Shown piece after piece: positions 10,747 to 54,870 of a stretch of DNA of 64,000 nt. Both the position numbers and the translations under genes were made by a program. The stretch lies in the IMG/VR virus record IMGVR_UViG_3300045988_163836. One strand, 5' to 3'. The notes under the pieces are model-generated. The model was not told the origin of the DNA and made no database searches. It saw only the letters and a program-made list of their open reading frames with translations. Positions within the stretch are counted from its first letter, which is position 1, and each line of letters begins with the position of its first letter. This stretch comes from a virus.

Positions 10747-10802
10747 ATTAACTCCTTTCTCTCCTCAAAAATGAGGAGGAAATTAATCCTCCTCATTTAG
10801 AT

Positions 10803-13800
10803 TTATTTGCACTTATATATTGAGCCGCATTATTACTAAGATTAGACAATGCTTCTTCAATTTCATAATGATCAGTAACTCCTGGGAAGTCTGCTTGGAT
10901 AGTAACTTCTTGCTTAATTGGCTAAGTTTCATAAACAGGTGGAGTAGTTTTATCAATTAAATTACCCAACTTTATCTATCCAAAATTAATCATTGATTGC
11001 ACTTGTTTATCAACCCAATCATTCATATTACGAACAATATCAACTGCACGAAGTATATTAGAAGTATCTTTTTGGTTAAGAATTAATTCTTTAGGATGGA
11101 CTTTAATAATTTTACCATTATCAAGTCCAAAGCCTTGTCCTTTAGCCCAATTACCAGTATAAGCACCAGAAGCAGCACCATTTCCGTTTAAAATATCATC
11201 TAACCATTTTTCATCTTTTTCGCTAGTAATCTATTTCATTTCGTCTTTAGTCCAATAATCAGTGCTAGAATCATTCTTTAATTCTTGACCCTCATTACGC
11301 ATATTATCTAATTTTTCATTACGGGCTGTAACTACATCATCAATACTCGTCCAAACGTTACCATTTTTATCAACAACAGTACTTTCCCCATTCTTCATAC
11401 GAATAGCAATAGCACTTAAATCAACACCAACTAAATTTCTAGCACCACTTCCGCCGCCGCTACTGCCAAAGTTACCATCAATATACTATTCATTCTTAGC
11501 TAACTCTTCATCAGTCCGCTTAGAATATTTCTATTCCCAATCAAGAACCATTCCAATAGACTAAGAAATATAACCCATTAATACATTAACAAGCTCTTCA
11601 ATTTCATCACACAATTTTTGAATATGTTCTTCAAGACTATCAAGAGTACCGCCCATATCAGAACCAAAGTTTTCCCAAGATGTACCAGCAACGTTCATTG
11701 CTGCTTCAACAACTTTTTGCCAATCTTTATAATTGGTTTGTAATTCACTAATTGTAGTATTAGAATTATTAACAAATAACATATAAGCATCATTATAATC
11801 ATACAAATCAGTCATTTGGCCGTAGAGAGTATCATGGAATGTTAATCCACTATTTACAACACCTTTATTTAATTCATCAAGTAAATATCTTTGTCTTTCA
11901 ACATAATACTCTTGCAATGATAATAGCTAATTTGAATAATCCGCAGAGTTTTTATCAAGATCTTGTAGGGCTTCTTTAAAATCAATTTGATTCTAAATTA
12001 ACTATTCACTTACGTCATTAATATAATCCTTACTTAACTTACCTAATTCATGAACCGCATCTTCATATTTCTATGTGGCGTCTTCAATTTTTTCTTCATC
12101 TGCATCATAAGCATAAGTCCAGTTACCAGCGGCATCACGCACTAAACGCATTGAAGTTTTGGAATTTTGTTGCTCCATAAGAGCTATTTCAGCAAGTTGT
12201 AAGTCATATTTCTTCTACAAATACTCAAGATCATATTGGCTCATCTAGACGCCATCGGCCTGAAGATCGTGAATCTCTTGCTAAATGTCTCTAAGTTTTT
12301 GTTTAGCTAAAAGGTCATTAGTATCAGCCAGCTATAAATTTAGCTAACGATTTAATTTATTTAATTCATATAAGCGTTCGGCATCATCAAGATATTCTTC
12401 ATTGATAGTTTTTGCTTTTTCGTATTTGTCTTGGAAATCTTCAAGAGTTTCAAATGGTGATAATGCATTACTTAATACATTAACGGCCATTTCAACACGC
12501 ATTTCAAATAAATCTTGAGCAGCTTCAAGTGTTTCTTCCCAAGAAGCTAAAAATTCATCAGAAGCTTTTTCAGTTTCTTGTTTTAATACTTCAACTTGAT
12601 TCTCCCAGAATTTAACAGAAGATGTATCACCATCAGCCTGACGATCAGCGAGAGCGGCCTAAGCCTCTTTAGTTGCTTTAGCCAAACCATCCATTTGTGC
12701 TTTTAAGGATTTCATTTTACCTAACATTGTTTCTACCTTAGTAGCACCAATCTAAGTTTTTAATCCCATATCAAGCATTGAGCGACCAGATAAATCAATA
12801 ATATTATTAAGATGGTCAAGCATCGATGTATAAGTATCAAGACGTTCTATCTACTTATCAATTTCATCAAGTGCCAAGTCTAGAACATTCTAAACCAAAT
12901 CTTCAATATCATTACGTAAATCTAGAATAGCTTCATTAACATCAATTAAATCACTTTGATATTCAAGTATCTATTCATCAAACATTTGTTCATAACCTGG
13001 ATACTTAGCTTTCGCGGCGTTCAACTAATCAATACCCTAACGTAATGTAGCACCTTTATCAAAGAGCTATAACATTTCTTGCTCTTGGTAAGCAAATCCT
13101 TCAAGCATTGCTTCAATAGTTTGTTTATTACCATGGGCCTATTTAAGAAGTTTTTCTTGATAATAATTAAGACGTTTAATCTAATAATCAATCTATTTAA
13201 CTTTCCAATCAATAGCTTTTGTAATGGCTTCGAGTTCAAGTTCAGCAGCTTCTTTTTCTTTCTGAGCGATAAGAGCGACATTTTCATCAATGTTCTATTG
13301 GATACCCATAGGACCATCAAGACTATCTTTGATTTTAGTAAACCATTCATTCAGGTCTTCTTCACTCATGCCATCTTCAAGATTTTTTTGATACTAAGCC
13401 CAAACTTTACCCCATAGCTCAGAAGCATTAGCAATTTCACCATCATCAGTAAGCTTTATTTCAAATTCTGGATTTTCTTTGTTAAATTCTTCTACTTTAA
13501 GTTTTAATAACTTTTTCCAAGATTTAATCTAATCTTCAAGAATATCTTGCTCTTCTTTTAATAATTTTATTTCTTCTTGGATATATTTAGCAGAATCTTC
13601 TGGATTAGCTCCCTCACGTAAAGCTTCAAGACGATCACGTTTCTTTTCTTTTGTTTTTAATACTTCATCTTGAATTTCTTTACCAATATCATTAGCAGAT
13701 TTAGTAGATTTACCTCCACCGCCTCCGCCACCACCTTTATTCCCGTTTTCAGTGGTTAAATATTTGCTGCCATCACCTTGAGTAACAACAGAACCTTCAG

Positions 13801-16800
13801 AAGCAACAGAAACTATATCACCTATTTGACTTTTTAAATCTCTTAACTTGGCAGCGTCATCAGATGTAAGATCACTAATGTCTTTACCGCCCATAATATC
13901 AGCCATTTGAGCAAAACATTCTAATAATTGCTATAGCTAATCAGTAGTGAAATGAATGCCTACTTGGCCCATAGCATTAATCCATCCGCACATTTCTTCT
14001 AAAGAACCACTGATAGGAGTTATGGCAGCTAAAGCCTAAGAAGCATCTGCTGTAATTTTACCATTAACTACAAATCCATCGTTCTAAGATAAAAGATTAG
14101 TTATTTCAGTTAATTTAGATTGAGCTTCAGTATATAATGTTGAAAAATCTAATTTTCCCGCAGATTCATTTATTTTTTCGATTAAAGCACTATCTACTTG
14201 AGAAAACATATCTAAGACTTGACCAGCTAAAGCTGCTTCATCATCATTACCCCATAAAAATTTTTCTATTAATGGTTGATTCATCTAATAATCTGATTCA
14301 GAAAAATTAAATAAATCTTTTACTTTTTGTTTTAAATCAGCTTCTACTTCAGCAGTATCTTCACCTTCATCACGCAGCTCTTTATATTTTGTTTTTAATT
14401 CACTAATTTCTTTGGTAGCTTCTTTTATTTCATTATTACGTAAAGCATTATATAAATTATTAATAGCTTTTTGGGCGGCATTAGCATTATCTCCAGCCTA
14501 CTCCATTTCATAATTATACTAATTTAAAGCTTCAGTATTACCTTCAATATCTTGATTTTTAGCAGCCCAACTTACTAAACCTTGCTAGCTAGCCTCATCA
14601 CCTAAATTAAAACCTGTCATTTGATTCATTTCTTTTACTGAATTAGCATCAGTATAAGCATTAGTTCTTAATAAATCAGCATTATATGATCCATCAATAT
14701 TAGCCATATAAGCATCTATTATTCCTTGCATAATAGCAGCCTAAGTAGCTGAATCCTAACGTTTATAGAAGTCTAAATCATAATTACCACTTTCATCGGT
14801 GCCAACTAATTTTGCTATTTCTTCAGGACTGCCAAAAATATCTAAAGCCTATTGTAATAAGGATCCCCCAGAATCATCAGTTAAACCTTTTTGCATTGCC
14901 TCTAATTGAGTATATTCTTGTCCATTAAAAATATATCCACCTTGTTTTATACCGGATCCCCAAGCTTCTTGATGAGCCTCTGCAACGTTATGCTATTCTT
15001 CAGCTCTATCTACTCCAGCCTGAGTTAATGCATTCTTAGCAGCAGTATCAAAATCTTTAACTTTTACATAGGTATCCAGACCAGTCTAAACATAATAATC
15101 TTCAGGATTTAATCCAGCAGCTTTAAAACCTTCAGTGATCTTATCATATTTTTCTTGAGTGATAGAACTACCGACTTCTTGGCCCATCAAGTTAAAAATT
15201 TCAATTAACAAATCTCTAAAAGTAGTAAAATCTTCTATAGGCAATTTATTAGCAGTTTCTTGCATCATATCATAGAAGCCTTTCCAAGCTCCTTCATCAT
15301 CTGACACAACAATACCTAAATCTTCTAGGGTATCAATAAATTCTTCCCAAGTTCCAGAAGACCAATCAAAATCAGCTATTTTATTTAACTAATCAAAAGT
15401 TAAATCTTTTCCTATGGTATTAATCGCTTCAGTAAACGCGGCGACTCCATTTTTACCTGCCACTTTAAATATATCTTCTGCAATCTAAGAAATACGAGAT
15501 TTTAATGAAACACTATATCCTTCAAATTCATCAATTGCTTCTGATATATCATCTTCATCTTCAAGCCCTAATATATATTTAAATGCTTTATTATTATTTA
15601 TATCCTCAATGTTAGTAATCTAGTGAGATGCTTCTTCTACTATGGCTTCACCTAATTCTTTACCGCTGGTTACGCCTAATTCTTTCATCATATTAGACAT
15701 ATATGATTTTACGGTTTCTTGCTATTCAGGTTTTAATAAATTAAAATCTTCGCCAAATAAACTCTATCCAATTAAGTTCTGTAAATCTTCATCTTCAAAA
15801 CCTTTTTCTATATCTTTTTTTAACTATTTAAGCTAATCTTGAGTAAAATTACTTAAATCACCATCATTGCCAAAAAATTCTAAAATACCTTGGCCTACAG
15901 TTCCTTGATTGCTCATACCAGTCTAGAATTTTTGAGCCATAGCATAAGTAGTTTGAAGTTCTTTTCCCATAGCCTACATAGTAGCTATCGCAGTAGCAAC
16001 TTCTGAAAATGATTTAGTTTTTCCATTTTCTAATTGGAATGATCTATTCTAACCTTCACCAATTACAGAATTTTTCTAATCTAATTTATATTCACTATCA
16101 TTTTTATCTATTTTAATCGCTGCTAAATAAGCATCCCATAAATTACGTAAAGCTTGATCTCCTTTACCAACTCCACCAGCATTTTCATCGTGAGTTCCTA
16201 TTTCTCGGTCCTTACCAGTTCCGTCATCCCAACTAATAGTTCCATTCTCATTATAAAAACTATTTTTTATAGCTTCAATATTAGCATCTACCAAAGCAGT
16301 AGTTATTTTAGCATCTTCAGTAGACATAGTATCTAATCCAAGAGCCTATTGGACTGAAGCTTCTTTCGTAACCTATAATGTAGCATCAGTATTTGCTTGT
16401 ATTACTTTTGAGACATTAGATATAGCAGCTTGAACATCATCAGTATTAAATTTATCTGCAATTTTCTAGGCATAATCATTTAAAGTCGTACTGTTATTGA
16501 GAGTTTCAAATCCATTATTCTTTAATGCCTATTCAATAATACTAACTTGTTCTTCCTAACTTTTATTCTATAAATTTTCCTAATTATTTAAAATTAAATC
16601 TGCTATACCTGGCATTACTGAAGTATATTGTCCATTTTTTGTTAATCCTCCAGTTGTACTGCCACTCTAAATATTAAGAACACCCTAAAGATTACTTATT
16701 AAGTCCTATTTAGCTTTTTCAATATTTAAGTCTTCTAAATTGCTTTGTTCATTAGCTAAAGCATATTGCTATTGAAGAATCTATTTATCATAAATAGACT

Positions 16801-19800
16801 ATAATTTATCAACAGCACTTTGGTCTATCCAAATTTCACCAGTATCTTTCTTGCCCCAAGCACCTTCCATATTCTTTAGCTCAGGATAAGTATTTAAAAT
16901 ATTAAGAGCTTCTTCATTAGCTTTAGTTAACTATGCACGCCATTCTTTAGTACCAACAGTACATTCATCTAAAGCAGATTTAACAGAGCTATAACTATCA
17001 AATACTGATTTTAACTATTCAGCTTTATTTTTTGTTTCTTCTAACTAACTTTTAAAACTCTCAACAGCCTATTCAGAACGTTTAATTTGTTCTTCTATAG
17101 TAAAAGACTAAGCTGTATTATATACTTTAACCAATACAGCAATGGCAGCAACTACTGCTCCAATTATTAAAGCATATTTACCCAAAACAAGTAAAGATTT
17201 AGTAAACATTGCATGAGTCGCTGCACCACTAGCTGCCAATTGCTATTCAGCAGTTCCCGCAGAACCAGCAGCTACTCCCAATTCTTTAAGCTTGGCGGTA
17301 TAAGCATCAAGACCAGTTTGCATAATTTTAGCTCTAAATCCAGAGCTATTCTCTATCTTTGTCTTTAAAGCTGCCTATAAGTCAGAACCCTATAAAGACC
17401 CTCCTAAACCAGTCATTATTGATAAAATATTAGTACCTAGTCCCTTCCAATTAGTTCCAATTTCTTTTAATCCACTAGCTAACTAATTTACTCCATTGAT
17501 TAAAGAAGGAATAGCAAAACTTGCCGAAGTAATGCTCTAAGTTAATTTTTCTCCAAAATCTAATTCGCTATTATTTAAAGTATTAAACATTCCTTTTAAA
17601 CTATTGATTCCAATAGCTAATTGAGAAATACCCTAAAAACTAGAAACTAATCCTTGAGAAAAACTATATATAGATCCTTGACTAGCTTTTAATTCTGCGT
17701 TAAAAGCTTCAATAGCACTCTCATATTTTTCAACCGCTCCTTTGTTCTACAAAAGAGCCTCTTTCTCATTTACGTAATCTGTAAGACACTATCTTAAAGC
17801 ATTAGACTAAGCTTTTGTTAATTTTTCTGCTTTAATTTTCTAATTAACATAATTATCAATTTCAAGATTAACGTCTCTTAAATTATTAACTTCAGCTAAT
17901 ATATCTTTTCTAAGAGTACCTTTAGCACCATTACTTAGATTAGAATTGTTACCCTATTGAATTAACTAATTTAATTTACTATATCTTTGATTATTTAAAT
18001 CTAATTGACCAAATTGAGAAATAAAATCTTTAAAAGAACCATTTGAATTAATTTTTAAAGACTTTAAATCTTGCATTGTTTTATCATTATAAAAATTATC
18101 AACAATCTTTTGGCCTTTTTTTAAGTTATTGTCAAAATAAATTACGCCCTTATCTCCACCAAATTTTTTATTATTATCTTCAAAAATTGTATTGCGAGCA
18201 TTACGTAAATTGTTATTACTCTAAGTTTGTTGAGCTTCTATGCTTTTTTTAGATTCTATAGCTATTTGTCCATAAGCCTAAGAAATTTTTAATAATGTCT
18301 ATAATCTTAATTTATCTGTTTCATTTAACTAATTATTTGCTAGCTATAAATCATAAGAAGCCTCTGCAGCTTTAACCATTGTAGTTGTTTCTAATTCAAC
18401 TGAACCCTATTTTGTTAAATCAGGTTTTTCTTCATAAGTTGTAAAGGTCTTTAAAACATTTATCATCTACTGCTTCATAACCGCAGCCTAATTTTCAGCA
18501 GCTCCGCTGTCAATAAACAAATTGGAAGCCATACGCTGCATATTATTTACAATATCAGGACCGAAGCTTTTTAGCATTAAAGTAGAAATAACACTTAATA
18601 CACCAGGCAATCCGCCTAATGAATCAATCAATTTGCTTGTAATATTTAATGTATCACTTAATGTATCATTTAATCCGATAAAAAATTTATCACTAACTAA
18701 TTGCTTATAAATTTCTTCAAGAGAAGCTTGTACTCGCTTTTTAGAAGCTTCCCAACTTTCAGCATAAATATCAGCTTGTTCTTGTAAAGTACCTTCAGAA
18801 TTTTTAGCCACTCCAACTAGCTCTTTAAAATAATCTTTATTCTCCATAAGATTAACTAATTGAGTGTATTGACGAACACCACCAACAGTCTATGCAAGAG
18901 CCACTTGTTCAGCACGACTTAAACTATCCCACTTATTCATCATTTCATCAAGGATAGTATTCATATCTTTTAACTCACCCTATTGATCTTTAATACTAAT
19001 ACCAACTTTTTCAAGGGCTTTAGAATATTTATTTAAATCAGTACCATCTTCAAGAGTTTCTCCAAGAGTCAGACCCTAAATACGTGCAAATAAGGTTTTA
19101 AGGCTATTACCTACTGTATTCGCACTTTCACGTGTTTTGGCAGTTAATGTAGCTAATGCAGATGTAGCATATTCATAACTAAGACCAATAGTATTAGCAA
19201 CAGAAGCGAATTTCTATATACCTTCTGAAATTTCATCAGTACTAGAAGCAGTATATGCACCAAGTTTAGTCATTACATCTGCATAATATTCAAGAGATTT
19301 GCTACCATCATAGAAGTTATTCCAAACAGCAGTTAACTAATCAGATACTTTAGAAGCACTTTCGCCTGCGGCGTTAGCCATTTTAATAGTAACTTCAGTA
19401 CGATCAGCAACTTCTTTATCACTTAAACCCTATTGATAATAAATTAAAGAAGCATTAGTATAATTAGTAGTAGTTGTACTTAATGCTTGAGCAGCCTTAT
19501 TAGCTTTTTCAGCAAACTCAGCCATCTAATCATTACTCTATCCAGTAACTATACGAATATCATTTAATGATCTATTTAAATCTTCTGCATAATAGTAAGC
19601 TTTCTATAAAGAACCCTATACTCCATGCATTAAGTTAGATGAAATTTGCCATTTGGCTGTATTAGCTAATGTCTTTTTAAAATTATCTAATATAGCGTTA
19701 GTTCTTTTTAAAGGAACTTCAGCATTAATAACAGACTATGCTAATGCAACAAATGCTTTATCACCTGTTGGGCCTAGATTCTCTAAGTGTGTAGCAAAAT

Positions 19801-20095
19801 CCTAAAGAGTATAACCACTCTAGCTTAAACTCTTTGAAAATTTTGATAAATCTAAACGCCCAGTATTAACATTAGTCGCCTAATCTAAAGCAATTTTTAA
19901 CTCCTAAACTGCTGCCGAGGCTTCATCTATTTCTTTTTTAGTGGCATTAACATCAAAAAATTTAATATTTTTTGTTGCTATCTAATTCATTAAAGTATCT
20001 AATGAACTTTGTAAATCTCGTAATTGCTATTTAGCTTGACCTGTATCAGCTGTAAATCGCATATTAACATTATAATTAGCACTGTTATTAGCCAT
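10803..20095 (-). CDS. Tail tape measure protein of about 3100 aa. It is heavily TAG-recoded, with many dozens of in-frame TAGs and no internal TAA/TGA in my reading.
   Basis: ATG at about 20093-20095 after AAAGGAG. The frame is continuous to a TAA at about 10803. It is coiled-coil rich and has a poly-Gly (G8) tract encoded at about 13700-13740. Track fragments 11561..11917, 13529..13906, 14084..14284, 15086..15307, 16076..16327 and 18488..18847 are all in this frame. Its position after the chaperone-like gene and before the distal tail genes fits a tape measure protein. Confidence 0.7.
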
Positions 20096-20139
20096 AAAAT
20101 AGCTCCTTTCTCTCATTATAAATTTCTATATATATAAAG

Positions 20140-22198: not shown

Positions 22199-22232
22199 AA
22201 AAAAGGAGAGGGATTAACCCTCTCCTTTAATA
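22199..22232 (-). terminator. Rho-independent terminator after the major tail protein gene.
   Basis: The minus strand reads aaggagagggttaatccctctcctt followed by a T-run. Confidence 0.55.
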
Positions 22233-22380: not shown

Positions 22381-23466
22381 TTAAATATCAAAATAGCTGT
22401 CGTGCATCGGATCATGGATAGTTTGAGTACGATAGACACTATCATTGTCAATATCTTCAATGATCTGAATTGCAGCAAGTACTTTCTTAGTAGGATTGAA
22501 ACGAGTAGTTCCTGGGAAAGCATCAAGCGTGAAAGTGAAAGTCGCAGGATCGCCAGTCGCGGCCATGCTGAAAGTAAAGTTAGACTGAATCTTGCAGTTA
22601 GGGATTATAAATTCTGCTGGAAGATCAACGCCGTCTTGAGTACGGAATAGAGTAGAAGCTTCAAGATAGAAGTTGCCACCAAAAGATTCAGCAGTAATTT
22701 CAATTTGACGAGTCTTGCTGGCTTTCTCAATATAATAATCAAGAAGAACAACAGAGCCTTCAAAGAGTTCTAACTTATGTTCTGCCCCGGCTTCAGTTTC
22801 ATCGACGATTTTGTAAGTAGAAGTGATTTCCTTAATTTGAAGACCATAATAAATCTAAGTACCAGCTTTGGCTTTAGTATCAGCTTCTTCATCAGTGCAG
22901 GTCTTATACTTCATTTCAGTTTCATCAAAATAGAACTTTTGAGGTTTTGTTGGTGCCTCTGTCTAACGAATAACTGTAGGAAGATAAGGTTCAGTTACTG
23001 GCTCATCATTGTCAACTCGCATAGCATAAATATAGAATTCACCCTTATGCGCACCAGTAGTAGTATCAACTTGTTCATATGGTAAGTTCTTAACAAAAAT
23101 TTGTACACTCTTTTTATCTTCAGAGAGAGCGACAGCAGTTGTTTTTTCAGTTACATGCTGTTTAATCGTATTCTGCTTCGAAGCATCAATAAGACCTGCT
23201 CCAGCAAGAATCATGAAACCTTCAGCAGAAATAAGAGCATCTTCCATAGTGAATGTTAAAGTACGGTCGCCATCCCAAGCTACTAAACGAGCATTGCCGC
23301 GTCCGCCTTGTGCATATACGGTCGTAGAAGCACCTTCAAGGCTAGAAGTTTTTAATGTATCAAAATAAAGAACTGGTTCGTTCGCATAGAAAACTTTATT
23401 ACCAACCTTCATAGGAGCACGAGCTTTTAATACGACATCGCATATCTCACGAACACCAAATTTCAT
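22381..23466 (-). CDS. Major tail protein candidate, about 361 aa. It has only two in-frame TAGs and is GC-richer than its neighbours.
   Basis: ATG at 23464-23466 after AAGGAGG. Track ORFs 22963..23466 and 22381..22566 join through TAGs. A strong terminator hairpin (about 22199-22232) follows. Its position upstream of the chaperone and tape measure genes, its low TAG count and its higher GC suggest a highly expressed structural gene. Confidence 0.5.
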
Positions 23467-26799: not shown

Positions 26800-27366
26800 T
26801 TAACCTTCTTTTACAACGTTATACCGAGGAGCAGTTCTACGACCAGGAGGCGTTGTGAGCTTAGTTTCGGTCTTTACTCTACGTTCAGGAGCTTTTGGAG
26901 TAATTTGTTCATCATCTGCAGCTTCAGCTTCCTTATTAGCTAAGGCTCGATCAAGGTCAAATCCAGTTTTATCCTTAAGAGCTTTACGTTTATTGTAATC
27001 ACTCATAGGAAGAGATACAGCATAACTCTTAATCATATCAATAACTCCAATAGGAGCAAAATCAAGACAGTCAAGGAATTCATCAAGAGTCCCTTCGGTA
27101 AGAAGCTTAATAACTCCAGCGTCGTCTAAATAATATTCAGGTTCTGTATGAATACCTAATTCTTCTGTAGTTTCAGTATCCACAATCTTTAAGAAGTTTT
27201 CCATCAAAGTGCGGCCTCCGCTAAGATAGGCAAGTTTCTCTAATTCCTCAAAAGGAATTTTCTTAGTTTCTCCAGGTGTAAATTCTCTGCGGATACCTTC
27301 TTCAGGAATGGTATAAACAACCATTCCAGCACTTCTATTAGTAACTATTAAAATTTTTTTACTCAT
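26800..27366 (-). CDS. Hypothetical head-module protein of about 188 aa, free of TAG.
   Basis: Track ORF 26800..27423. The preferred start is the ATG at 27364-27366, which follows AAAGGAG. It is downstream of the capsid gene. Confidence 0.45.
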   Translation of the reverse strand: MSKKILIVTNRSAGMVVYTIPEEGIRREFTPGETKKIPFEELEKLAYLSGGRTLMENFLKIVDTETTEELGIHTEPEYYLDDAGVIKLLTEGTLDEFLDCLDFAPIGVIDMIKSYAVSLPMSDYNKRKALKDKTGFDLDRALANKEAEAADDEQITPKAPERRVKTETKLTTPPGRRTAPRYNVVKEG

Positions 27367-27394
27367 TTTTTTTATTCTCCTTTTACTCATAAAA

Positions 27395-27430
27395 CAAAAT
27401 AGGGGAGAAGGGGATTTCCCCATTCTCCCC
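27395..27430 (-). terminator. Rho-independent terminator after the capsid gene.
   Basis: The minus strand reads aggggagaatggggaaatccccttctcccct followed by a T-run. Confidence 0.55.
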
Positions 27431-27466
27431 TAAAAATATTATATATTAATTTTTAGTTAATATCAA

Positions 27467-28603
27467 TTACGGCTTATCTTCATTACCGCCATCAATAGTA
27501 TCATGAGAACCAGTAATCTGACCAGCATAGTCACGGACCTTACCAGTTACGCCATCAAGATGCCATGTCTTCATATCACCAAGAAGTTCAGTATCACAAT
27601 AGCAGCAGATGTTATTAGCTAACATAGCAATAACGCCGACTTTCTTATAAACCTGAATTTCACGGCTACGATCATAATTGGTATATTCATCAACAATGGT
27701 ATTGCCTTCCATAGCAACCTTTACAGGCTTACTATCAGCACCAGTAGGAATAATCCAAGCATAACCTGGGTCAATGACTTTCTTTTCATTAGTAGCATCT
27801 TCAAAGCCCTGTTCAAGAATAACTACTTTATAGCCCTTATAGGAAGCAAGACGGCCAGTATTCCAAAGCTCATTTTTCATAGCTTCAGTATAACGCCAAG
27901 CATCCTTCGGAATCATACGAACAGCAAATTCATAAGTGCAATAAATAGTAGGAGTACCATAAGCAGAAGCAATCATAAGTAACTTATCAAAGCCGGGTTC
28001 ATCAAAACCATTAGCAACTAAACGGTTAGCAGGAGGTAACTGGTTAACAGAAGCCTTTAAAGCACCGGCAATTTCTTTATAGATAAGTTCATCCATACCT
28101 TCCATGACGATCTGAGTGACAACACCAAAATCGACACGGCCATCAAGGAATTCCTCAAATCCAATTTGAGTAGCTCCGCCGATAGCGCTTGTACGGACTT
28201 CAAAACTTTCTTCAGTCTTACCAAGCTTGAATACTTCATAGATACCAGCTAGGCCGACACGAGTGATAAATTGCTTTGCACGAGTATTGTTGCTGAACTT
28301 TCTACGGAAAATAGGCTTGTCACCCTGTTTAAACGTCTTAACTTCAGCAAACTGATTATATTGCTCTTCAACTTTCTTAGGAAGAACTTCATCAATAGTT
28401 TCCTCAATCATTGAGAAAATAAGGTTCTTATTATCACGATATAAAGAATAAGTTCCAGCAAGTTCATTTAATTCTCTGCGGAGAGTTTCATTAAGAGCAT
28501 CATAAGAAAGGCTTTCGCCATTAAAGCTGTAAGCAGTAGGAGTAGAAGGATCAGCCTTAGCGACAGTCTTCATTAATTGAACAAGATTTTTTCTATCTAA
28601 CAT
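27467..28603 (-). CDS. Major capsid protein candidate, 378 aa, with no in-frame TAG.
   Basis: An intact 378-aa ORF in the track. It sits between a scaffold-like gene and the connector genes. It is GC-richer and is followed by a strong terminator hairpin at about 27395-27430. Confidence 0.55.
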   Translation of the reverse strand: MLDRKNLVQLMKTVAKADPSTPTAYSFNGESLSYDALNETLRRELNELAGTYSLYRDNKNLIFSMIEETIDEVLPKKVEEQYNQFAEVKTFKQGDKPIFRRKFSNNTRAKQFITRVGLAGIYEVFKLGKTEESFEVRTSAIGGATQIGFEEFLDGRVDFGVVTQIVMEGMDELIYKEIAGALKASVNQLPPANRLVANGFDEPGFDKLLMIASAYGTPTIYCTYEFAVRMIPKDAWRYTEAMKNELWNTGRLASYKGYKVVILEQGFEDATNEKKVIDPGYAWIIPTGADSKPVKVAMEGNTIVDEYTNYDRSREIQVYKKVGVIAMLANNICCYCDTELLGDMKTWHLDGVTGKVRDYAGQITGSHDTIDGGNEDKP

Positions 28604-28620
28604 TTTTCTTCTCTCCTTTC

Positions 28621-29397
28621 TTACGCGATTCGCATAATCTTAACGCCCTTCTGATGATCAGGCATTTCATAAACCTTGACAACCTACCATTGGATAGAGC
28701 CATCACCAGATTTAGAAAGCATACCATCAGCAGCACGAGGACTTAAAACATCGCCAACTGCAAGAGTAGCTTCGGCAATAGTATTAGTCGTAAAAATATC
28801 ACCAACATTGGTCTTGAAAACACGAGGAACCATATTAGTGCCAGCAGGCATTCTACGAGCCTCATAAGGACCATCAAAATGTAAAGGATCTTCTTCATAG
28901 AAGAGTTCACGAATATCAGGACCAGCAGTAACATCATCATACTCATAAGTATGTTGTACACCCTGACTATCTGTAATAGTCATAGAAGTATTACCTTCGG
29001 CATCCTTGCCGTTTAAATAGCGAGCCTGACGTGTACCAATTTCCTGCTTGCCATCATAGGGGCTGTAATAACGAGCCTGATAATCGTCTTTGCGCATAGC
29101 AAATTCGCAATCAGCTTGTTCCTCACGATAAAGTTTAATTTCATTATAAACTAACATCCATTCGCCCTTGCCAGTGAAATCAACTTCACCAAGGTCACCA
29201 GCAGCATAGTCATACTTAACAAACTGGCCATTTTCAAGAAGCTGGATATTTTTGTTAGCAGGTAATTGAGCGTAAATCTGACCAGTGCGCTGAGCACTTA
29301 AATGATTAGGCTCAACCTGACCATAGCCATATTCAACGTAGCCGCCCTTAACAGCAGATACGCCGCTTAGGTCTTTAAGCATATCTTTTAAAAGCAT
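28621..29397 (-). CDS. Capsid-associated or decoration protein candidate, about 258 aa.
   Basis: Track ORF 28684..29397 plus a single TAG read-through to a TAA at 28621. It lies between the scaffold-like gene and the capsid gene. Confidence 0.4.
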
Positions 29398-29445
29398 TAG
29401 GTTTTCCTCCTTAAAAATTTATTATTCCATAGTTTTCGCAACATC

Positions 29446-30987
29446 CTATACTGCCTTAATCCAAGCAGGAATGCTATCGTCATTTACATCATTATTAATA
29501 TTATATGTAAGTGGGTCATTTTCTTTCTTTTCATTGGTATCGAAATTGACCTTATTGCGAACACAGATAATAGAAAGCTTTGCTTCAATATCATCTAATG
29601 AATATGTATCAATATTAGCAACAACATCTTTCTTATCATCATCAGATAACATATAGAAACTATTAATCATTTCTTGCTTCTTTTCTCTTTCAGCCTCAGT
29701 TTTGAACTGAGTTAAAGAAGCAAGTTCTTGTTCGAGCTGTGTTTTCTTTTCAACTAATTCATTATATTTAGTTTCAAGTGCAGCATACTCATCTTTTAAT
29801 AAACCATATTCAACTACATCTTCCAAAGAGTACTTAGCTTTCTTTTTCTTTTTTTTCTCTTCGTCATCCTCAGTTGGTTCTTCTTCTTCATCAGAAGTAT
29901 CAGTTGGTTTATTTTCGGGAGTGTCCTTCTTTTCACCATCTTTTGGCTGGTCTTTAGAAGGATCTTCCTTATTATTATCATTATTCTCTTTATTGTCTTT
30001 ATCTTTTTCGTCCTTTTTTTTCTTCGCAAATTCTGCGACTTTTTCAGGATCGAATTGAGGATTATCAGAAACAGAATAATCAGTTAATTCAGAAACTTCG
30101 CCAGGAGTGAAAGTATCATTCTCCATAGAAAAATCTAAACGAACGAACTTATCATCTTCCTTGACAATAGCAAATAAATTACCATTGTCTTCGCAAACTT
30201 CTTCAATCATTGCATTACCTGCTCCGAAGCCCTTAATGTAAGAATAAAGAGAAGTCCAAATGGAATCACCAATCTCCACACTATATCTTGTGAACACTTT
30301 TGTTCCTCCTTTACCTTCTAATAATTCTTTTAAATCTTTCATCATAGAGAATAATTGCTCATTAAATTTATCACTAAATGAGAAATGCATCGTAGGTGCA
30401 GTAATATTAGCTCCTTCGAAGCAAGGTTCACAATCTTCTCCAAGAATACAAAGTTTCTTAATTATTGCTTCATTTATAATAAAAAATTCGGGCATTCCAT
30501 TCTTATCTTTCGACCAATACGCATTAATTTTTTCATCATCTAATTCCATAGATTGATTATTGCCTTTTTCAATAATGCGCTTACTTTCTGGATAGATATC
30601 TGTCCAGATATAGCCTTCAGTCATTAAATATTCATGCTCGTTTTTTCCATCATCTAAGAATTTCTAAAACCAAACTTTTGCCCCTAAATCTACAAAACCA
30701 TAAGGAACAGTGGTATCTTTTACATCAAATTTACCATTGGAAATATCAATTACACGGTTATGTTCTTCATAATCTCCATTAGCTTCATTGTAATAACCAA
30801 CAATAGGGCTACCTGGTAAACTCTATGCTAAATCTTTAGCAACTTCTTTTGTTATAATACTTCTATTGCGATTTGGTTTATCACTAACATAGCAGACCTT
30901 AATCTAACACTTAGAAATTAAAGGATTGATTTTAGTGATATTAATAAACTCAACAGGAGTATCTAACTTAACACTTGTATGTCTCAC
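29446..30987 (-). CDS. Prohead protease/scaffolding-like protein. The C-terminal 392 aa are acidic and coiled-coil; the N-terminal roughly 120 aa need a GTG start and three TAG read-throughs.
   Basis: Track ORF 29446..30624 (coiled-coil, K/E/D-rich). The frame stays open upstream to a GTG at 30985-30987 that follows GGAGG. The functional call rests on position and composition only. Confidence 0.4.
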
Positions 30988-30999
30988 TATAAATCCTCC

Positions 31000-32685
31000 T
31001 TATTTACCAGCAGCTTGACGATTAGCAATTGTTTTTTCGCTCTTTTCATCGTTAGCTTTTTCTGGTCGGCCACCCTCTTTAGTTTCTGTTTTCACAGTGG
31101 CATTTCCACTTGTTTTATTTTGAGAAGTGTTAGAACCATTCTAATCTTTTTTACCCAAAATATCTTCACCATTTAATGTAGAACTCATAAGAGGAGGTAT
31201 CATAACTTCGCTTAAATGTAAAACTTCGTTTTCAAAATGAGCTGTATTAAGAATAAAACTCTATGATTGTCCAAGAGCAATCTAAGGTAACATTTTAGAG
31301 AAACCAATCTAAGTTTGCTCTTTATACATTTTAGATAAATCTTTATAATTATACTATGTAGTTTCTAACATATAGAATTTATAATTATATTTTTTCTAAA
31401 CATTCAGGACTGATAATATTCTATCAAAAAATATGTTGAATTGCAAAATTAAATTACGCATGGTAGATTCATCATCTAAGATAGACTTTTCTAAGGCGAT
31501 ATTACCATCTGTATTAAATAAATTGCGTGAAACGCCAAATGCATTATATACAGTTCGTTCAACACGCTCTAATTCATCTGTAGTGGCAGAAGTATTTTTG
31601 TCAGAAGTATCAATAGCATCTACATCAGCAAAAGTAGTTAATACATCAACACCTACTGCTCTACGAAGCATTTCAACAGCATTATTATGGATATCACGAG
31701 CTTCATCAATATCAAAAATCAAATCACCATTTTTATCAAGCGGTAATTTCTAAACTAAAATTTTTAACAATTTCTGCATTTGTTTGCGGCGGTCCAAATC
31801 TTGTGCAGCATCCAAATCTAAAATCGCAGGAATAGCATTTACAAATAATGGAATATCATTAGTACCATTTAGAGCAAACTTAATAGTGCTTTGTGGATCT
31901 AACAAATACCAACTACCAGTATTATCACCAGCTACATCAGGTAAAAGTTTACCAGCTTTATAGAGACGATAACCTATTGTAAATTCATCAGGGAATAATT
32001 TTAATACTCTATTACGGTAATTAGTATCCACAAAAGTATCAAAGTATCTCATATCAAATTCAATAGCAGGTAAATTACCTACTGAATATCTTGAACGGCA
32101 ATACTCAATAGGAAGTTGCTATAAAATTAAGCCAGTACTTGAGGGAACAATATAGGCATAATAAGCTCCACATTTGATAACTTCAAGAGCCATATCGCCA
32201 CAAATTTTCTTAATATAAGAATTATCTAAATAATTTAAAATTCGCCAGAAATCTTTTACTGCTTTTGTTTCATTAATATCTTTAACAGCAGAACCATCAG
32301 TATTATTAGACTAAATAGCAATAGCCCAATCATAACGATACATATTTGCAAAATAATTACATACTCTTTGATAAATACCACTTACTCTAAAAAAGAAACG
32401 TGATATTCTTCGCAGTTCTTGAATATCATTACGAATTAAAGCATCCATAACCATAGGTTTTGTATAAATACGTTCACGGCTATATTTTTCACTACGGCGA
32501 CCGTAAGTGTCCCATCTAAAAGATCCAAGATTTAAGACAGCATCATCTAATGTCTTAACCCCGACTTTAATCTTCTTATACTCATTTGGGCCAACGGCAG
32601 AATACTCACGTACTCCTCCAGTTATGTCAAAACCTTTTTTATGTATCTATTCATTTCTGGTTAATTCTTCCTTTTCTAATTCCAT
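31000..32685 (-). CDS. Portal protein candidate of about 560 aa (TAG-recoded).
   Basis: ATG at 32683-32685 with an RBS. It ends at a TAA at about 31000. Track fragments 31750..32052 and 31396..31722 are in this frame. The gene order (TerL, small gene, this gene, scaffold, capsid) fits a portal. Confidence 0.5.
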
Positions 32686-33147: not shown

Positions 33148-34899
33148 TTAATTCATAAACATCCAATCAGCAGCCCGGAATTTTTTCTTCTTTTTATCTT
33201 CTTCTACTTTTTTTATATAATATAATCCATACTCTAATGCAGAGAATTTATCTTTTTTAATACTTTTATTAGCTTGTTTTAAAATTATATTTAAACCTTC
33301 ATTTTCTTCACGCAGATTCATAATCTCTTCACGCAATGAAGTAGTTAAACTGAATGGTCTTAAATAATCAGATCGCGCTTCTGTGGTCATATTCTAGCCC
33401 ACTTTAGTAGTTAATAATTTCTATTTAGCAGTTCGTTCATCAATTAAAAATTTAATCTTACCAGAATTTAATACTGACTAAGTAATACTATGGGCTTCAG
33501 TATTAATTGGTGCATTAGCTTTCATTAAATATAAAACATCTAATTCTGTACTATTAGTTTTATATTTTTTATATTCTTGAACTGCATCATCCTGAGTTCC
33601 ACCATAAACTCCAAAATCAGGAATTACTTCAGAAGTTTCAGGATTAATCTATGGCTTAACCATAAAATCTACTAAACCAACACCAAGTCCATTAGCATCT
33701 ATTACAATTCTGCGAGCTTTATATTTATAATATAATTTTTTAAGTTTAATAGCCTAATCTTCAAAGTGTGTATCATTCATAGTATAAATATTAACTAAAC
33801 TTTTAATTGGCTCACCATGCGGTTGCGGCGTTACTTTAAATACACAAACAACAGTATCGCATCCTTTACGGCCTACGTCAACACTTAATATATAATAAGA
33901 TAATTTACTTGAACGGCCAGAAGCTTCGTATTCAGGCTAATTCAGTATTCTATTTCTATTAAATATTTCTGCATTAAAGAAAGCGTCTTCAACAGTACCA
34001 GACCAAATTGATTCATATTCACGTTCGAAAGAAGCTTCATTATAAGTTCCTTCATTTTTTTGGTCAGTAATAAATGTTTTCTGTTGTAATCCAACAGCAA
34101 CAGGAGTTCGCCAAGTTCCACCTAATACCATACATCTATCAGGCTATGTAATCATACGAACTAATAAACCAATTAATCTATCATAAGGATAAGTATTTTT
34201 ATAGCCAGCAGTAGTAATATAAATCTATGATTTATTTACCGCTTCTTCTTCATGAGTTGTACCATCCTTAGCTCTACGAGGAATAGCCATAACTGGTATA
34301 ATGACTTCGCGTAAAATCTAATCATCAATACCTACACATTCTTCCATTAGACCACCATGACGACGCTGACCACGAGTACTTTCTCTCGCAGCTAAATTAT
34401 CAAGGACAGAACCATTCTTAAATACATAACGTACTTTATCTTTACTCTCTTGGCTCTTACCTCGGCCCCAATCAATTTCGCGTTTAAAACTTGGTATTAA
34501 ATCACAAATTTCATTAACTTTATCATGTAGAATACTCGCGCCTTGTTCCTTACCACCCGAAGTAACAAATAAATGAACACCAGGATAAAGAATACATCTA
34601 ACCATTAATGCCATAACTGATAAGAATGATTTAGAATAGGCACGAGGGAAAACTGCATAAACGTACTGATAGCGCATTACACATCTTAAAAAAACACGCT
34701 AATAGAAGAAAAATTTAAATTCTCCTTCTTTCTATTCTGTACGTGTTCCTCGTACTAAAAAATCAACAAATAAATCTGGATATTCGCGCCAAAAGGCAGT
34801 ATATTTACGAATGACTGGCATTACGGCATTAATACGTTCTTCAGAAAGACCTATTTTTTTCCTACTTGTAGATAGGTCAAGTAAATCTTGTAACGCCAT
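33148..34899 (-). CDS. terL: Terminase large subunit of about 583 aa (TAG-recoded).
   Basis: ATG at 34897-34899. The N-terminal ATPase-region fragment is track 34318..34677. The C-terminal nuclease-like region has 'YILSVDVGRKGCDT', 'RIVIDANGLGVG' and 'EREYESIWSG' (tracks 33937..34131 and 33148..33390). About 9 in-frame TAGs. Ends at a TAA at 33148. Confidence 0.75.
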
Positions 34900-51671: not shown

Positions 51672-52034
51672 ATGTTAATGACCGCTGAAAAGTTGGCAAA
51701 TTCGCTTAAAATTTCCATTGAAGAAGCCAAACAGGTTTTGGAAATGGACAAGCGAATTGATAGGGGCGAAAAGCTGTTTGAGTTGCCGCCGGAGCTTGAA
51801 GCAGGAGCAAAAAAGGCAAGACGTGCCGACCGGAAGAAAGTGGAAAATGTAAGGCGGGAGCGAAAACCTGATGAAGATAAAAGGGAACTAATCCAGTATT
51901 TGGAAAGTTCCTTGGAAGATGCCTACCCCGATTTGGATTTGGGTAATATTACCATTGCAAATCCAGAACGAGAAATGGAATTTACTTACAATGGAATTAA
52001 ATACCGGCTGACCCTGATGCGCCCAAGGAAATAG
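51672..52034 (+). CDS. Hypothetical protein, 120 aa (module copy B, gene 2). It ends in TAG.
   Basis: Track ORF. The stop is TAG at 52032-52034. Reading through would add about 40 aa across two terminator hairpins (52040-52075 and 52118-52160). Confidence 0.5.
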   Translation: MLMTAEKLANSLKISIEEAKQVLEMDKRIDRGEKLFELPPELEAGAKKARRADRKKVENVRRERKPDEDKRELIQYLESSLEDAYPDLDLGNITIANPEREMEFTYNGIKYRLTLMRPRK

Positions 52035-52259
52035 ATGGAAGATGGAAACATCTTCCATCCTTTTTGGAATCATAATTGGAAAATTTTTCCAAGGAAAATA
52101 TTGGAACAGATGGTAATTTCAACCGGTCGCGTACAGTTGACGCGACCGGAATTTTGATTTAATTTGATAATTGTAAATTTTCCGAAAAAAAATTCGGACA
52201 TTTTACGAAAATTGATTTTTCCCGAATTTTATAGTATTATGTAAAAGGAGGTAAAAATT

Positions 52260-54450: not shown

Positions 54451-54544
54451 ATTAAATTCATAATTTTTCCTTTCAATTTTTGATTTCATTTTTCAATTCA
54501 TTTCTTTGCAACCACAAGGCCAACACCGCCATTCAAGAAAATAC

Positions 54545-54845: not shown

Positions 54846-54870
54846 ATATCTTCTATGCTAATTCAAATAT

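What the first reader, a model, noticed from the sequence alone, without database searches (positions are those of the whole stretch)
26800..30987. The head module is free of TAG inside the recoded late region
Four consecutive genes contain no in-frame TAG, and the region is visibly GC-richer. These are the 392-aa C-terminal part of the scaffold-like gene, the 28684..29397 protein, the 378-aa capsid gene, and 26800..27366. Flanking late genes average roughly one TAG per 30-60 codons. The major tail gene 22381..23466 has only two.

Two explanations are possible. The most highly expressed virion genes may avoid the recoded codon because suppression is rate-limiting or error-prone. Alternatively, the head module may have been acquired recently from a standard-code phage. 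In either case it means capsid protein could be made before suppression is established.
Basis: seen in the sequence. Interest (0 to 1): 0.6.

Follow-up and report, generated by a model that had tools for sequence, protein, structure and literature searches.

The report
Abundant virion genes avoid recoded TAG
In this gut phage that reads TAG as glutamine, the genes for the proteins that by their inferred roles are needed in the most copies (capsid, a likely decoration protein, an internally started scaffold, the tail tube) almost never use TAG. The same holds in all 13 recoded relative lineages examined, so it reflects codon choice under selection, not a borrowed gene block.

Summary
The capsid gene (27467-28603) and the 188-aa gene (26800-27366) have no TAG. 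The "28684..29397" gene runs on to 28621 through a sense TAG, and the scaffold-like gene has a fourth sense TAG at codon 514.

TAG supplies 1 of 27 glutamine-family codons in capsid + 258-aa + 188-aa genes, against 48% in the other late genes (P = 5e-7). The non-adjacent major tail gene behaves the same way.

In 13 of 13 recoded relative lineages these four genes use TAG for 0-9% of glutamine codons, against 26-48% elsewhere. In 22 standard-code relatives the same genes are already GC-richer and prefer CAG. The bias therefore does not depend on recoding, which argues against recent acquisition of the module from a standard-code phage.

A new detail: the scaffold-like gene holds a conserved internal ribosome-binding site plus GTG/ATG at codon 231. 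TAG share falls from 40% upstream of it to 5% downstream.

Best reading: selection on translation of the highest-copy virion proteins keeps TAG out. No expression data exist, and protein roles rest on synteny and annotation. This is a tidy case of a known principle in a phage group related to phAss-1. Interest is moderate to low.

The parts
27467..28603 (-). Major capsid protein gene, 378 aa. It has 0 TAG, and its 11 Gln codons are all CAA or CAG (7 CAG).
   Evidence: Searches give the counts. An 81%-identical protein is named 'major capsid protein' by a source, with precomputed Pfam PF27364. Bacillus phage homologues at about 26% identity are annotated as major capsid protein. The AlphaFold2 model was poor (pLDDT 44), so the fold is not verified.
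27391..27431 (-). Intrinsic terminator immediately after the capsid gene: hairpin 27431-27401 followed by a T-rich tail 27400-27391.
   Evidence: RNAfold gives -25.5 kcal/mol. A comparable hairpin with a T-tail (at most -12 kcal/mol) follows the capsid stop in 94% of 79 relatives, against 0-19% after the other head and neck genes and 42% after the major tail gene.
26800..27366 (-). 188-aa protein of unknown function, with 0 TAG and only 1 Gln codon.
   Evidence: Searches give the counts. It matches phrog_30998, function unknown. Across 59 recoded relatives TAG makes up 1.8% of its Gln-family codons.
28621..29397 (-). 258-aa protein between the scaffold and capsid genes (the position of lambda gpD), a candidate decoration protein. 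It has one sense TAG at 28686-28684 (codon 238).
   Evidence: The true end and the sense TAG come. Codon bias is the strongest in the region. The AlphaFold2 model has low confidence (pLDDT 54.5). Foldseek gave only weak local hits to phage capsid auxiliary chains, none significant.
29422..30987 (-). Scaffold-like gene, 521 aa, GTG start. Sense TAGs lie at codons 28, 55, 108 and 514 (30906-30904, 30825-30823, 30666-30664, 29448-29446).
   Evidence: It matches phrog_3313. Coiled-coil-type weak Pfam hits fall in residues 392-468.
29422..30297 (-). Predicted nested 291-aa scaffold product, started internally at GTG 30297-30295 (codon 231 of the long gene).
   Evidence: GTG or ATG occupies this column in 78 of 82 sequences, although GTG makes up only 1-4% of Val codons here. 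In 12 recoded lineage representatives (the window among them) TAG share is 39.8% upstream and 4.7% downstream of it, Fisher P = 9e-9. In relatives, 189 of 200 TAGs map to codons up to 230.
30304..30312 (-). Internal Shine-Dalgarno sequence AAAGGAGGA, 6 nt upstream of the internal GTG.
   Evidence: GGAGG is kept at the nucleotide level in every distinct relative sequence except phAss-1.
22381..23466 (-). Major tail (tube) protein gene, 361 aa, with 2 TAG (codons 168 and 204). It shows the same codon bias as the capsid gene.
   Evidence: It matches phrog_2729, virion structural protein. Homologues are annotated as tail tube or major tail protein in Bacillus phages. TAG share is 1.1% in recoded relatives.
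22202..22228 (-). Bidirectional terminator-like hairpin downstream of the major tail gene.
   Evidence: RNAfold gives -20.7 kcal/mol.
31000..32685 (-). Portal gene, used as a TAG-rich comparison flank (10 TAG in 561 codons).
   Evidence: for the counts; for the match to phrog_2739, portal protein.

Best explanation
The window is the late (virion) region of a siphophage that reads TAG as glutamine. It is a distant relative of phAss-1. In ordinary late genes TAG has taken over about a third to a half of glutamine codons.

One class of genes resists this: the capsid protein, the 258-aa protein next to it (probably a decoration protein), the 188-aa protein, the internally initiated scaffold, and the major tail tube protein. 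For the four with an assigned role, that role implies hundreds of copies per virion. These genes keep CAG or CAA and carry a distinct codon usage, and the capsid and tail-tube genes are followed by strong terminators.

The inferred cause is translational selection. A TAG must be decoded by a suppressor tRNA, presumably in competition with the host release factor. Each TAG would then cost some yield and speed, and that cost would matter most in the genes with the highest ribosome traffic.

Shown here: the codon pattern, its conservation, its independence from recoding, and the switch inside one gene. Inferred: high expression, copy numbers, and the release-factor cost.
For: 1. Window: TAG share of Gln-family codons is 1/27 in capsid + 258-aa + 188-aa genes and 2/14 in the major tail gene, against 0.483 in the other late genes (P = 5e-7 and 0.009).
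2. In 59 recoded relatives the share is: capsid 1.0%, tail tube 1.1%, 188-aa 1.8%, 258-aa 2.9%. The other late gene families show 14-64%.
3. The contrast holds in 13 of 13 lineages clustered at 90% portal identity or more. In each lineage Fisher's exact P rounded to 0.000 at three decimals.
4. Restricted to conserved-Gln columns, where the choice is purely synonymous: capsid 6/405, tail tube 2/265 and 258-aa 13/464 TAG, against 33-62% in portal, TerL and two neck genes.
5. In 22 standard-code relatives the same four genes are GC-richer and prefer CAG (0.50-0.72, against 0.16-0.35). This predicts TAG avoidance in recoded relatives (Spearman rho = -0.77, P = 0.0014).
6. The codon shift is general, not limited to Gln. 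Values are high-copy set against other late genes: CTT 0.56 vs 0.16, ATA 0.04 vs 0.32, TTC 0.44 vs 0.13, AAG 0.59 vs 0.14, AGA 0.16 vs 0.36.
7. Within one gene, on one mRNA, TAG share drops from 39.8% to 4.7% at a conserved internal SD + GTG/ATG start. This points to ribosome flux rather than transcription or gene origin.
8. A strong terminator after the capsid gene is conserved in 94% of relatives.
9. The TAG-rich genes include the portal, terminase, neck genes, tape measure and tail-tip proteins. By established knowledge of tailed-phage virions these are low-copy components.
Against: - No expression or proteomic data exist for this phage. 'Highly expressed' is inferred from function, synteny and codon bias.
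- The functions of the 258-aa and 188-aa proteins are unproven. Pfam and PDB sequence searches found nothing significant, and the AlphaFold2 models have low confidence.
- The capsid fold was not verified.
- Against a base-composition-only null, the capsid gene's zero TAG is only marginal (P = 0.06).
- Without the four genes, the correlation between codon bias and TAG share among the remaining families is weak (rho = -0.37, not significant). The pattern is two classes, not a gradient.
- The tape-measure gene tolerates 108 TAGs, so suppression must be efficient and the cost per TAG small.
- In crAss-like recoded phages, in-frame stops in the capsid gene were among the markers used to detect recoding (PMC7886860). 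Capsid avoidance is therefore not universal.
- The suppressor tRNA was not found in the window or in the relatives' 21-kb loci.
Confidence: 0.75

Rival explanations
1. Recent horizontal acquisition: the head module came from a standard-code phage and has not yet had time to accumulate TAG.
For: - The region is GC-richer.
- Standard-code relatives with 81-82% identical capsid proteins exist.
- Capsid and tail-tube proteins separate recoded from standard-code relatives less than portal or TerL do: capsid REC-REC 0.812 vs REC-STD 0.805, against portal 0.683 vs 0.627.
- Module mosaicism occurs in the clade.
Against: - The TAG-poor state of the same genes is found in all 13 recoded lineages, which have diverged to 71-99% capsid identity.
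- The window's nearest capsid relatives (94-99%) are recoded phages whose flanking genes have diverged to 67-93% identity.
- The TAG-poor set is not contiguous. The tail tube gene lies 4 kb away, and the boundary inside the scaffold gene falls at an internal start, not at a recombination-like junction.
- The capsid distance matrix correlates with those of portal and neck genes as well as those genes correlate with each other.
- The GC and CAG bias is present in the standard-code relatives' own genomes relative to their flanking genes, so it is a gene property rather than a donor signature.
Confidence: 0.05
2. Timing design: these genes are kept TAG-free so their products can accumulate before the suppressor tRNA is expressed. 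TAG-bearing genes are held back, in line with the recoding-as-late-switch model.
For: - The capsid and 188-aa genes are fully translatable in the standard code.
- The published model holds that in-frame stops delay late and lysis proteins (Borges et al., bioRxiv 10.1101/2021.08.26.457843).
- The most TAG-dense genes in the window include a homing endonuclease, reminiscent of their finding in Agate phages.
Against: - The TAG-free genes lie in the same co-oriented, tightly packed gene string as the TAG-bearing portal, neck and tail genes.
- Portal and the long scaffold-like product, which nucleate head assembly, contain TAG. Early capsid protein would therefore have nothing to assemble on (inference from established head-assembly pathways).
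- The same genes show the same bias in standard-code relatives, where no switch exists.
- In the window the 258-aa gene and the nested scaffold each carry a TAG close to the 3' end, which would truncate conserved C-termini before suppression.
Confidence: 0.1
3. Pure composition or mutation bias: locally higher GC, from amino-acid content or a different mutational regime, lowers TAG without any selection on the codon itself.
For: A position-specific base-composition null expects only 0.8-2.9 TAG per head gene. Individual deficits are then marginal (capsid P = 0.06).
Against: - At conserved-Gln columns the TAG share differs 12- to 75-fold between gene classes, far beyond the shift in GC3 of about 0.22 to 0.33.
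- Other late genes are 2-4 times above their own composition expectation, while the capsid + 258-aa + 188-aa genes are below theirs (1 observed against about 6 expected).
- The switch occurs inside one gene at a translational start.
- The shift involves specific synonymous codons such as CTT, CGT and avoidance of ATA, not uniform GC enrichment.
Confidence: 0.07

Closest known systems
phAss-1 / proposed Phassvirus and its wider group of human-gut siphophages, some using code 15 (Babkin et al. 2023, PMC10607447)
   Same: - TAG is read as Gln in TerL, portal, tape measure and tail genes.
- The tape measure is about 3,100 aa (3,107 here, 3,149 in phAss-1).
- The capsid protein is homologous (49% identity).
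- Recoded and standard-code members sit in one group.
- In the phAss-1 record the capsid gene and its neighbours are intact ORFs under table 11, and the aligned capsid, 188-aa and scaffold homologues show 0 TAG.
   Different: - This phage is not in that genus: capsid identity is 49%, and the late region is 25-34% GC against 44.5% for the phAss-1 genome.
- In the sections I read, the paper says that TerL and the tape measure are recoded. It does not comment on TAG avoidance in capsid or tail-tube genes, or on a nested scaffold start.
Gene-family-specific bias in use of recoded stop codons in alternatively coded phages (Borges et al., bioRxiv 10.1101/2021.08.26.457843)
   Same: The metric is the same (TAG against CAA/CAG per gene family). 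[quoted passage not shown]
   Different: - They tested for and reported enrichment (lysis genes, a tail tube family, an intron endonuclease) in crAss-like and Agate phages. They interpreted it as timing control.
- Here the striking class is depletion, it includes the tail tube gene, and it tracks a codon bias that also exists in standard-code relatives.
Translational selection on codon usage in highly expressed genes (general principle, from established knowledge)
   Same: A small set of presumably high-output genes uses a distinct preferred codon set and avoids rare or poorly decoded codons. The reassigned TAG behaves like the least-favoured synonymous codon.
   Different: The avoided codon is a reassigned stop. 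Its mis-decoding would cause termination rather than slow decoding. Expression level is inferred here, not measured.
Phage lambda C / Nu3 nested protease-scaffold genes, and the lambda head gene order B - C/Nu3 - D - E (recalled from established knowledge)
   Same: - An in-frame internal start inside the gene after the portal yields a C-terminal scaffold-like product.
- The gene order is portal, nested gene, small protein, capsid.
   Different: - There is no sequence similarity to lambda proteins.
- A protease function for the N-terminal 230 residues is not shown.
- The two protein products have not been observed.

Membership tests
Code 15 (TAG to Gln) recoded phage | Conserved late genes are interrupted by in-frame TAG and become full length when TAG is read as sense. 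| tested here: met
   Portal, TerL and the tape measure are restored, and portal and TerL match PHROG families.
Code 15 (TAG to Gln) recoded phage | TAG positions align with Gln in standard-code homologues. | tested here: met
   Gln is by far the commonest residue at TAG columns in 22 standard-code relatives for portal, TerL and the neck genes. Specific cases are shown.
Code 15 (TAG to Gln) recoded phage | A suppressor tRNA with anticodon CTA is encoded by the phage. | tested here: inconclusive
   No tRNA was found in the 64-kb window or in 18 relatives' loci. Related genomes are about 90-200 kb, so the gene may lie outside. phAss-1 has three such genes according to PMC10607447.
Code 15 (TAG to Gln) recoded phage | TAG is not used as a terminator in the recoded genes. 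| tested here: met
   All 19 late genes end in TAA or TGA.
Phassvirus genus (phAss-1, ctckW2, ct6IQ4) | High nucleotide identity (80-86% within the genus) and about 44% GC. | tested here: not met
   Megablast of the head module against the phage collection found nothing. The capsid protein is only 49% identical. GC in the late region is 25-34%. This is the wider group, not the genus.
Lambda C/Nu3-type nested scaffold gene | A conserved in-frame internal ribosome-binding site and start codon. | tested here: met
   AAGGAGG, then 6-8 nt, then GTG or ATG in 78 of 82 sequences. Val and Met alternate at that column.
Lambda C/Nu3-type nested scaffold gene | The N-terminal part unique to the long product is a maturation protease. 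| tested here: inconclusive
   There was no Pfam hit and no PDB profile hit. Invariant His76 and Ser146 exist, but that is not a test.
Lambda C/Nu3-type nested scaffold gene | Two protein products are made from one reading frame. | not testable with these tools
   This needs proteomics or N-terminal sequencing.
HK97-fold major capsid protein | HK97-like fold, or membership of a curated capsid family. | tested here: inconclusive
   - A source names an 81%-identical protein 'major capsid protein', and precomputed Pfam PF27364 is on record.
- Homologues in Bacillus phages are annotated as major capsid protein.
- The local Pfam copy gave no hit, PDB searches found nothing, and the AlphaFold2 model had pLDDT 44.
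Capsid decoration/cement protein (258-aa gene) | A fold related to known decoration proteins, or detection on capsids. | tested here: inconclusive
   - Its position between the scaffold and capsid genes matches lambda gpD.
- The model has pLDDT 54.5.
- The best Foldseek E-value was 0.18. Repeated weak local hits (probability 0.7-0.85, about 70 aa) fall on chains of the BB1 and phiCD508 capsid entries, whose roles I did not verify, with weaker ones on FCWL1 and T1.
Translationally selected (high-expression) gene class | A distinct, shared synonymous codon preference relative to neighbouring genes. | tested here: met
   for the window. One search shows it is conserved in both recoded and standard-code relatives.
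Translationally selected (high-expression) gene class | Measured high expression or protein abundance. | not testable with these tools
   No transcriptome or proteome is available. The claim is inferred from virion stoichiometry and the conserved terminators.

The most novel reading that the evidence does not exclude
TAG density is not just tolerated or purged but is used as a stoichiometry rheostat. Suppose each TAG passes only a fraction s of ribosomes. The number of TAGs per gene would then set relative protein yields within a co-oriented, presumably co-transcribed late gene block. That would run from about 1 (capsid, tube, short scaffold) down to s^10 (portal, terminase) and s^108 (tape measure). 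The internal start of the scaffold gene would mark the point where yield is stepped up.
Probability: 0.15. Interest if true: 0.7.

Novelty: new member of a known kind. Interest (0 to 1): 0.35.

Why it matters
- **A cost to the reassigned codon.** Inside a recoded phage, TAG still appears to behave as a costly codon that selection keeps out of the genes thought to be most heavily translated. That constrains models of how recoding evolves and how efficient natural amber suppression is. A 3,107-codon gene with 108 TAGs needs read-through of at least about 98% per codon to give 10% full-length product (my arithmetic, an inference).
- **Annotation.** In this lineage the capsid and tail-tube genes cannot be used to detect recoding.
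- **A natural experiment.** The switch in TAG use at an internal start codon separates translation flux from transcription and from gene origin within a single gene.

Tried and rejected
- **Structure of the capsid protein.** A 20-sequence alignment at 79% identity or more gave pLDDT 44, which is unusable.
- **Structure of the 258-aa protein.** pLDDT was 54.5 and Foldseek against the PDB gave no significant match.
- **Sequence and profile searches.** PDB searches for the capsid protein, the N-terminal domain of the scaffold-like protein, the 258-aa protein and the tail tube found nothing. Pfam found nothing for capsid, 258-aa, 188-aa or tail tube.
- **Non-coding RNA.** tRNA and Rfam scans of the window found nothing. 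There were no tRNAs in the relatives' loci.
- **Nucleotide match.** Megablast of the head module against known phages found nothing.
- **Horizontal transfer.** Identity ranking, nearest-neighbour code state and distance-matrix correlations showed no capsid-specific discordance.
- **Base after TAG (+4 position).** A is slightly up and G down relative to CAA (P = 2e-4), but the difference from all codons is not significant (P = 0.07). No clear read-through context emerged.
- **Position of TAG along genes.** Roughly uniform.
- **Literature.** Searches and reading found no prior statement that capsid or tail-tube genes avoid the recoded codon. That is absence in what I could search, not proof of novelty.

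Full report
**What the window is**

Read with the standard code, the minus strand from 313 to 37253 is a litter of short ORFs. With TAG read as sense it becomes 19 tightly packed genes. PHROG matches identify the large terminase (33148-34899), the portal (31000-32685) and a virion structural protein (22381-23466). A 3,107-aa tape-measure-sized gene (10793-20116) carries 108 in-frame TAGs.

The capsid protein's best annotated relative is phage phAss-1 (49% identity). phAss-1 is the type of a described group of human-gut siphophages, some of which use code 15 (TAG read as Gln) while others use the standard code (PMC10607447). The window holds no tRNA gene and no Rfam match.

The plus-strand region 37.5-64 kb consists of small ORFs, nearly all TAG-free, and looks like an early region.

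**Checking the observation**

Most of it holds:
- The capsid gene (27467-28603) and the 188-aa gene (26800-27366) contain no TAG.
- The 392 codons after the ATG at 30624 contain none.
- The major tail gene has two.
- The remaining late genes carry one TAG per 40.8 codons.
- The 188-aa, 258-aa and capsid genes are GC-richer, at 0.37-0.42 against 0.26-0.32 in the other late genes; the scaffold-like gene is 0.32.

Two gene ends are wrong:
That motif is shared by standard-code and recoded relatives. The gene ends at TAA 28621, directly before the capsid gene's ribosome-binding site.
- The TAG at 29448-29446 is also sense. Two relatives have CAA/CAG-encoded Gln there, and the following residues are conserved.

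So the 258-aa gene has one TAG and the scaffold-like gene has four.

**Is it more than chance?**

The fair comparison is among glutamine-family codons (TAG, CAA, CAG). The background TAG share is 0.483.

| Genes | TAG / Gln-family codons | P |
|---|---|---|
| Capsid | 0/11 | 7e-4 |
| 258-aa | 1/15 | 7.5e-4 |
| Capsid + 258-aa + 188-aa | 1/27 | 5e-7 |
| Major tail | 2/14 | 0.009 |

Position-specific base frequencies predict only 0.8-2.9 TAG per head gene, so the capsid gene alone gives P = 0.06. The other late genes sit 2-4 times above their own composition expectation. The contrast is real. It is better described as 'most late genes are TAG-enriched and a few are not' than as a hole in a uniform background.

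**Relatives settle the interpretation**

A scan of IMG/VR with the capsid protein returned 80 loci (capsid identity 71-99%), each with 10 kb on either side. I called genes with TAG as sense and matched them to the window's genes. By that analysis 59 loci (phAss-1 among them) are recoded and 22 use the standard code.

TAG share of Gln-family codons across the recoded loci:

| Gene family | TAG share |
|---|---|
| Capsid | 1.0% |
| Major tail | 1.1% |
| 188-aa | 1.8% |
| 258-aa | 2.9% |
| Scaffold-like | 21% |
| Other families | 14-64% |

Many loci are near-duplicates, so I clustered them at 90% portal identity or more. This gives 13 recoded lineages. In every one the four genes show 0-8.7% TAG against 26-48% elsewhere, and in each lineage Fisher's exact P rounded to 0.000 at three decimals.

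Restricting to alignment columns where Gln is conserved makes the choice purely synonymous. The contrast persists:
- Capsid 6/405, tail tube 2/265, 258-aa 13/464.
- Portal, TerL and two neck genes: 33-62%.

**The bias does not depend on recoding**

In the 22 standard-code relatives the same four genes are also GC-richer. They prefer CAG (0.50-0.72 of CAA+CAG) while their neighbours prefer CAA (CAG 0.16-0.35). This CAG preference in standard-code relatives predicts TAG avoidance in recoded relatives across 14 gene families (rho = -0.77, P = 0.0014). The signal comes from the four genes forming a separate class.

Within the window the shift is general. The four genes favour CTT, CGT/CGC, ATC, TTC, AAC, AAG, CAG and GGC, and avoid ATA, AGA, TTA and most A-ending codons. 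Higher GC is therefore a by-product of a preferred-codon set, not a mark of foreign DNA.

**Horizontal transfer**

- The window's closest relatives are recoded and share the TAG-poor capsid gene. They are L002, L003 and L043 (91-100% identity in head and neck genes) and L004 and L005 (67-94%). The best standard-code capsid is 82% identical.
- Capsid distances correlate with portal and neck-gene distances about as well as those genes correlate with each other.
- There is mosaicism in the clade. For example, L003 matches the window at 95-100% in head and neck genes but only 71% in the tail tube gene.
- Capsid and tail-tube proteins separate the two code groups less than portal or TerL do. TAG-free genes may cross the code boundary more easily, but I could not test that.
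- None of this supports a recent import into this phage.

**A sub-gene boundary**

Mapping TAG positions in the scaffold-like gene of the recoded relatives showed that 189 of 200 lie at or before codon 230. Exactly there the alignment shows the peptide pattern (K/E)GG-x-x-(V/M).

At the nucleotide level this is AAGGAGG, a 6-8 nt spacer, and then GTG (66 sequences) or ATG (12) in 78 of 82 sequences. GTG supplies only 1-4% of valine codons in these genes.

This is a conserved internal translation start. In the window the Shine-Dalgarno sequence is at 30312-30304 and the GTG at 30297-30295. It predicts a nested 291-aa C-terminal product with an acidic/basic linker, a coiled-coil region and a conserved tail. 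The arrangement works like lambda C/Nu3. The gene order portal, nested gene, small protein, capsid mirrors lambda B, C/Nu3, D, E. That comparison is recalled knowledge, not a homology result.

In 12 recoded lineage representatives (the window among them), TAG share is 39.8% upstream of the internal start and 4.7% downstream (P = 9e-9). Other codon-bias indices move the same way. Both parts lie on the same mRNA and share one evolutionary history. The variable that changes at that point is how many ribosomes translate the sequence.

**Transcript architecture**

A strong hairpin with a T-tail follows the capsid stop (27431-27391, -25.5 kcal/mol). A comparable structure follows the capsid gene in 94% of relatives. 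The figure is 0-19% after the other head and neck genes and 42% after the major tail gene. In the window a -20.7 kcal/mol bidirectional terminator follows the tail tube gene.

**Mechanism**

Shown here:
- A class of genes excludes TAG.
- That class shares a preferred-codon set.
- The pattern is conserved and independent of recoding.
- It switches at a translational start.

Inferred:
- These are the highest-output genes. Capsid, decoration, scaffold and tube proteins are needed in hundreds of copies, whereas portal, neck, terminase, tape-measure and tip proteins are needed in few. This rests on general knowledge of tailed-phage virions.
- TAG decoding by a suppressor tRNA in competition with release factor 1 costs yield or speed.
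- Because the tape-measure gene tolerates 108 TAGs, read-through per codon must be high. About 98% or more is needed for 10% full-length product (my arithmetic). At that efficiency, 11 TAGs in the capsid gene would still lose about a fifth of the most abundant protein. That would be a plausible selective difference.

**What remains weak**

- There are no expression data.
- The capsid fold and the roles of the 258-aa and 188-aa proteins are not verified. Structure models had low confidence, and searches found nothing significant.
- The 258-aa model gave only weak local hits to chains of phage capsid entries. That is a hint, not a finding.
- The suppressor tRNA lies outside the window.
- The timing idea ('capsid before suppression') cannot be excluded without time-resolved data. 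It is disfavoured because the portal and the long scaffold-like product need TAG read-through, and because standard-code relatives show the same bias.

**Comparison with the literature**

Borges et al. measured per-family preference for recoded stops. They reported enrichment in lysis genes, a tail tube family and an intron endonuclease, and proposed that selection enriches or depletes such codons. In the sections I read, the phAss-1 paper says that TerL and the tape measure carry TAG and does not comment on the capsid gene. In crAss-like phages, in-frame stops in the capsid gene were among the markers used to detect recoding, so capsid avoidance is not universal.

I found no prior description of depletion in capsid and tail-tube genes, or of the switch at a nested start. 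The principle behind it, avoidance of poorly decoded codons in high-output genes, is standard.

**Verdict**

The feature is real and conserved, and its explanation is ordinary. Interest is moderate to low, with one neat extra in the within-gene switch at the internal start.

Noticed in passing
window 53839-54489 (-): A 216-aa GIY-YIG endonuclease (Pfam PF01541) with 10 in-frame TAGs, about 1 per 22 codons, which is denser than any virion gene. It sits on the minus strand inside the otherwise TAG-free plus-strand region. This recalls the strongly recoded intron endonuclease reported in Agate phages.
   Followed up: partly
window 54775-55296 (-): A 173-aa DUF6291 protein with 9 in-frame TAGs, next to the GIY-YIG gene. 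Its function is unknown.
   Followed up: partly
window 30295-30312 (-); same column in L002-L081: A conserved internal Shine-Dalgarno sequence plus GTG/ATG start inside the scaffold-like gene (78 of 82 sequences). It predicts a nested 291-aa scaffold protein. phAss-1 (L001) lacks the motif at the aligned position.
   Followed up: yes
window 27391-27431 (-); downstream of the capsid gene in 79 relatives: A strong intrinsic terminator directly after the capsid gene, conserved in 94% of relatives. A sigma-70-like TTGATA-17-TATAAT match (27466-27438) lies just upstream of it.
   Followed up: partly
L003, L004, L005 compared with the window: Module mosaicism among close relatives. L003 is 95-100% identical to the window in head and neck proteins but only 71% in the tail tube protein. 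L004 is 96% in the tail tube but 71-75% in the 188-aa and scaffold-like proteins.
   Followed up: no
L008-L024, L070-L075 compared with the recoded loci: Standard-code and TAG-recoded phages are interleaved at similar distances (capsid REC-REC 0.81, REC-STD 0.805). This suggests repeated gain or loss of recoding, or freer exchange of TAG-free genes across the code boundary.
   Followed up: partly
window 51672-52157 (+) and 52260-52880 (+): Among 50 chained plus-strand ORFs only three end at TAG in the standard code. These correspond to ORFs that extend when TAG is read through (1, 1 and 4 TAGs). A few genes at the edge of the early-like region therefore also seem recoded.
   Followed up: no
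window 57822-59192 (+) and 45528-46592 (+): The standard-code region encodes an RNA ligase-like protein (PF09414 plus an OB-fold domain) and a PcfJ-like protein. GC rises to 0.40-0.44 around 38-52 kb, well above the late region.
   Followed up: no
window 10793-20116 (-): The tape-measure-sized gene has 3,107 codons and 108 in-frame TAGs. Suppression must therefore be very efficient for any full-length product to be made.
   Followed up: partly
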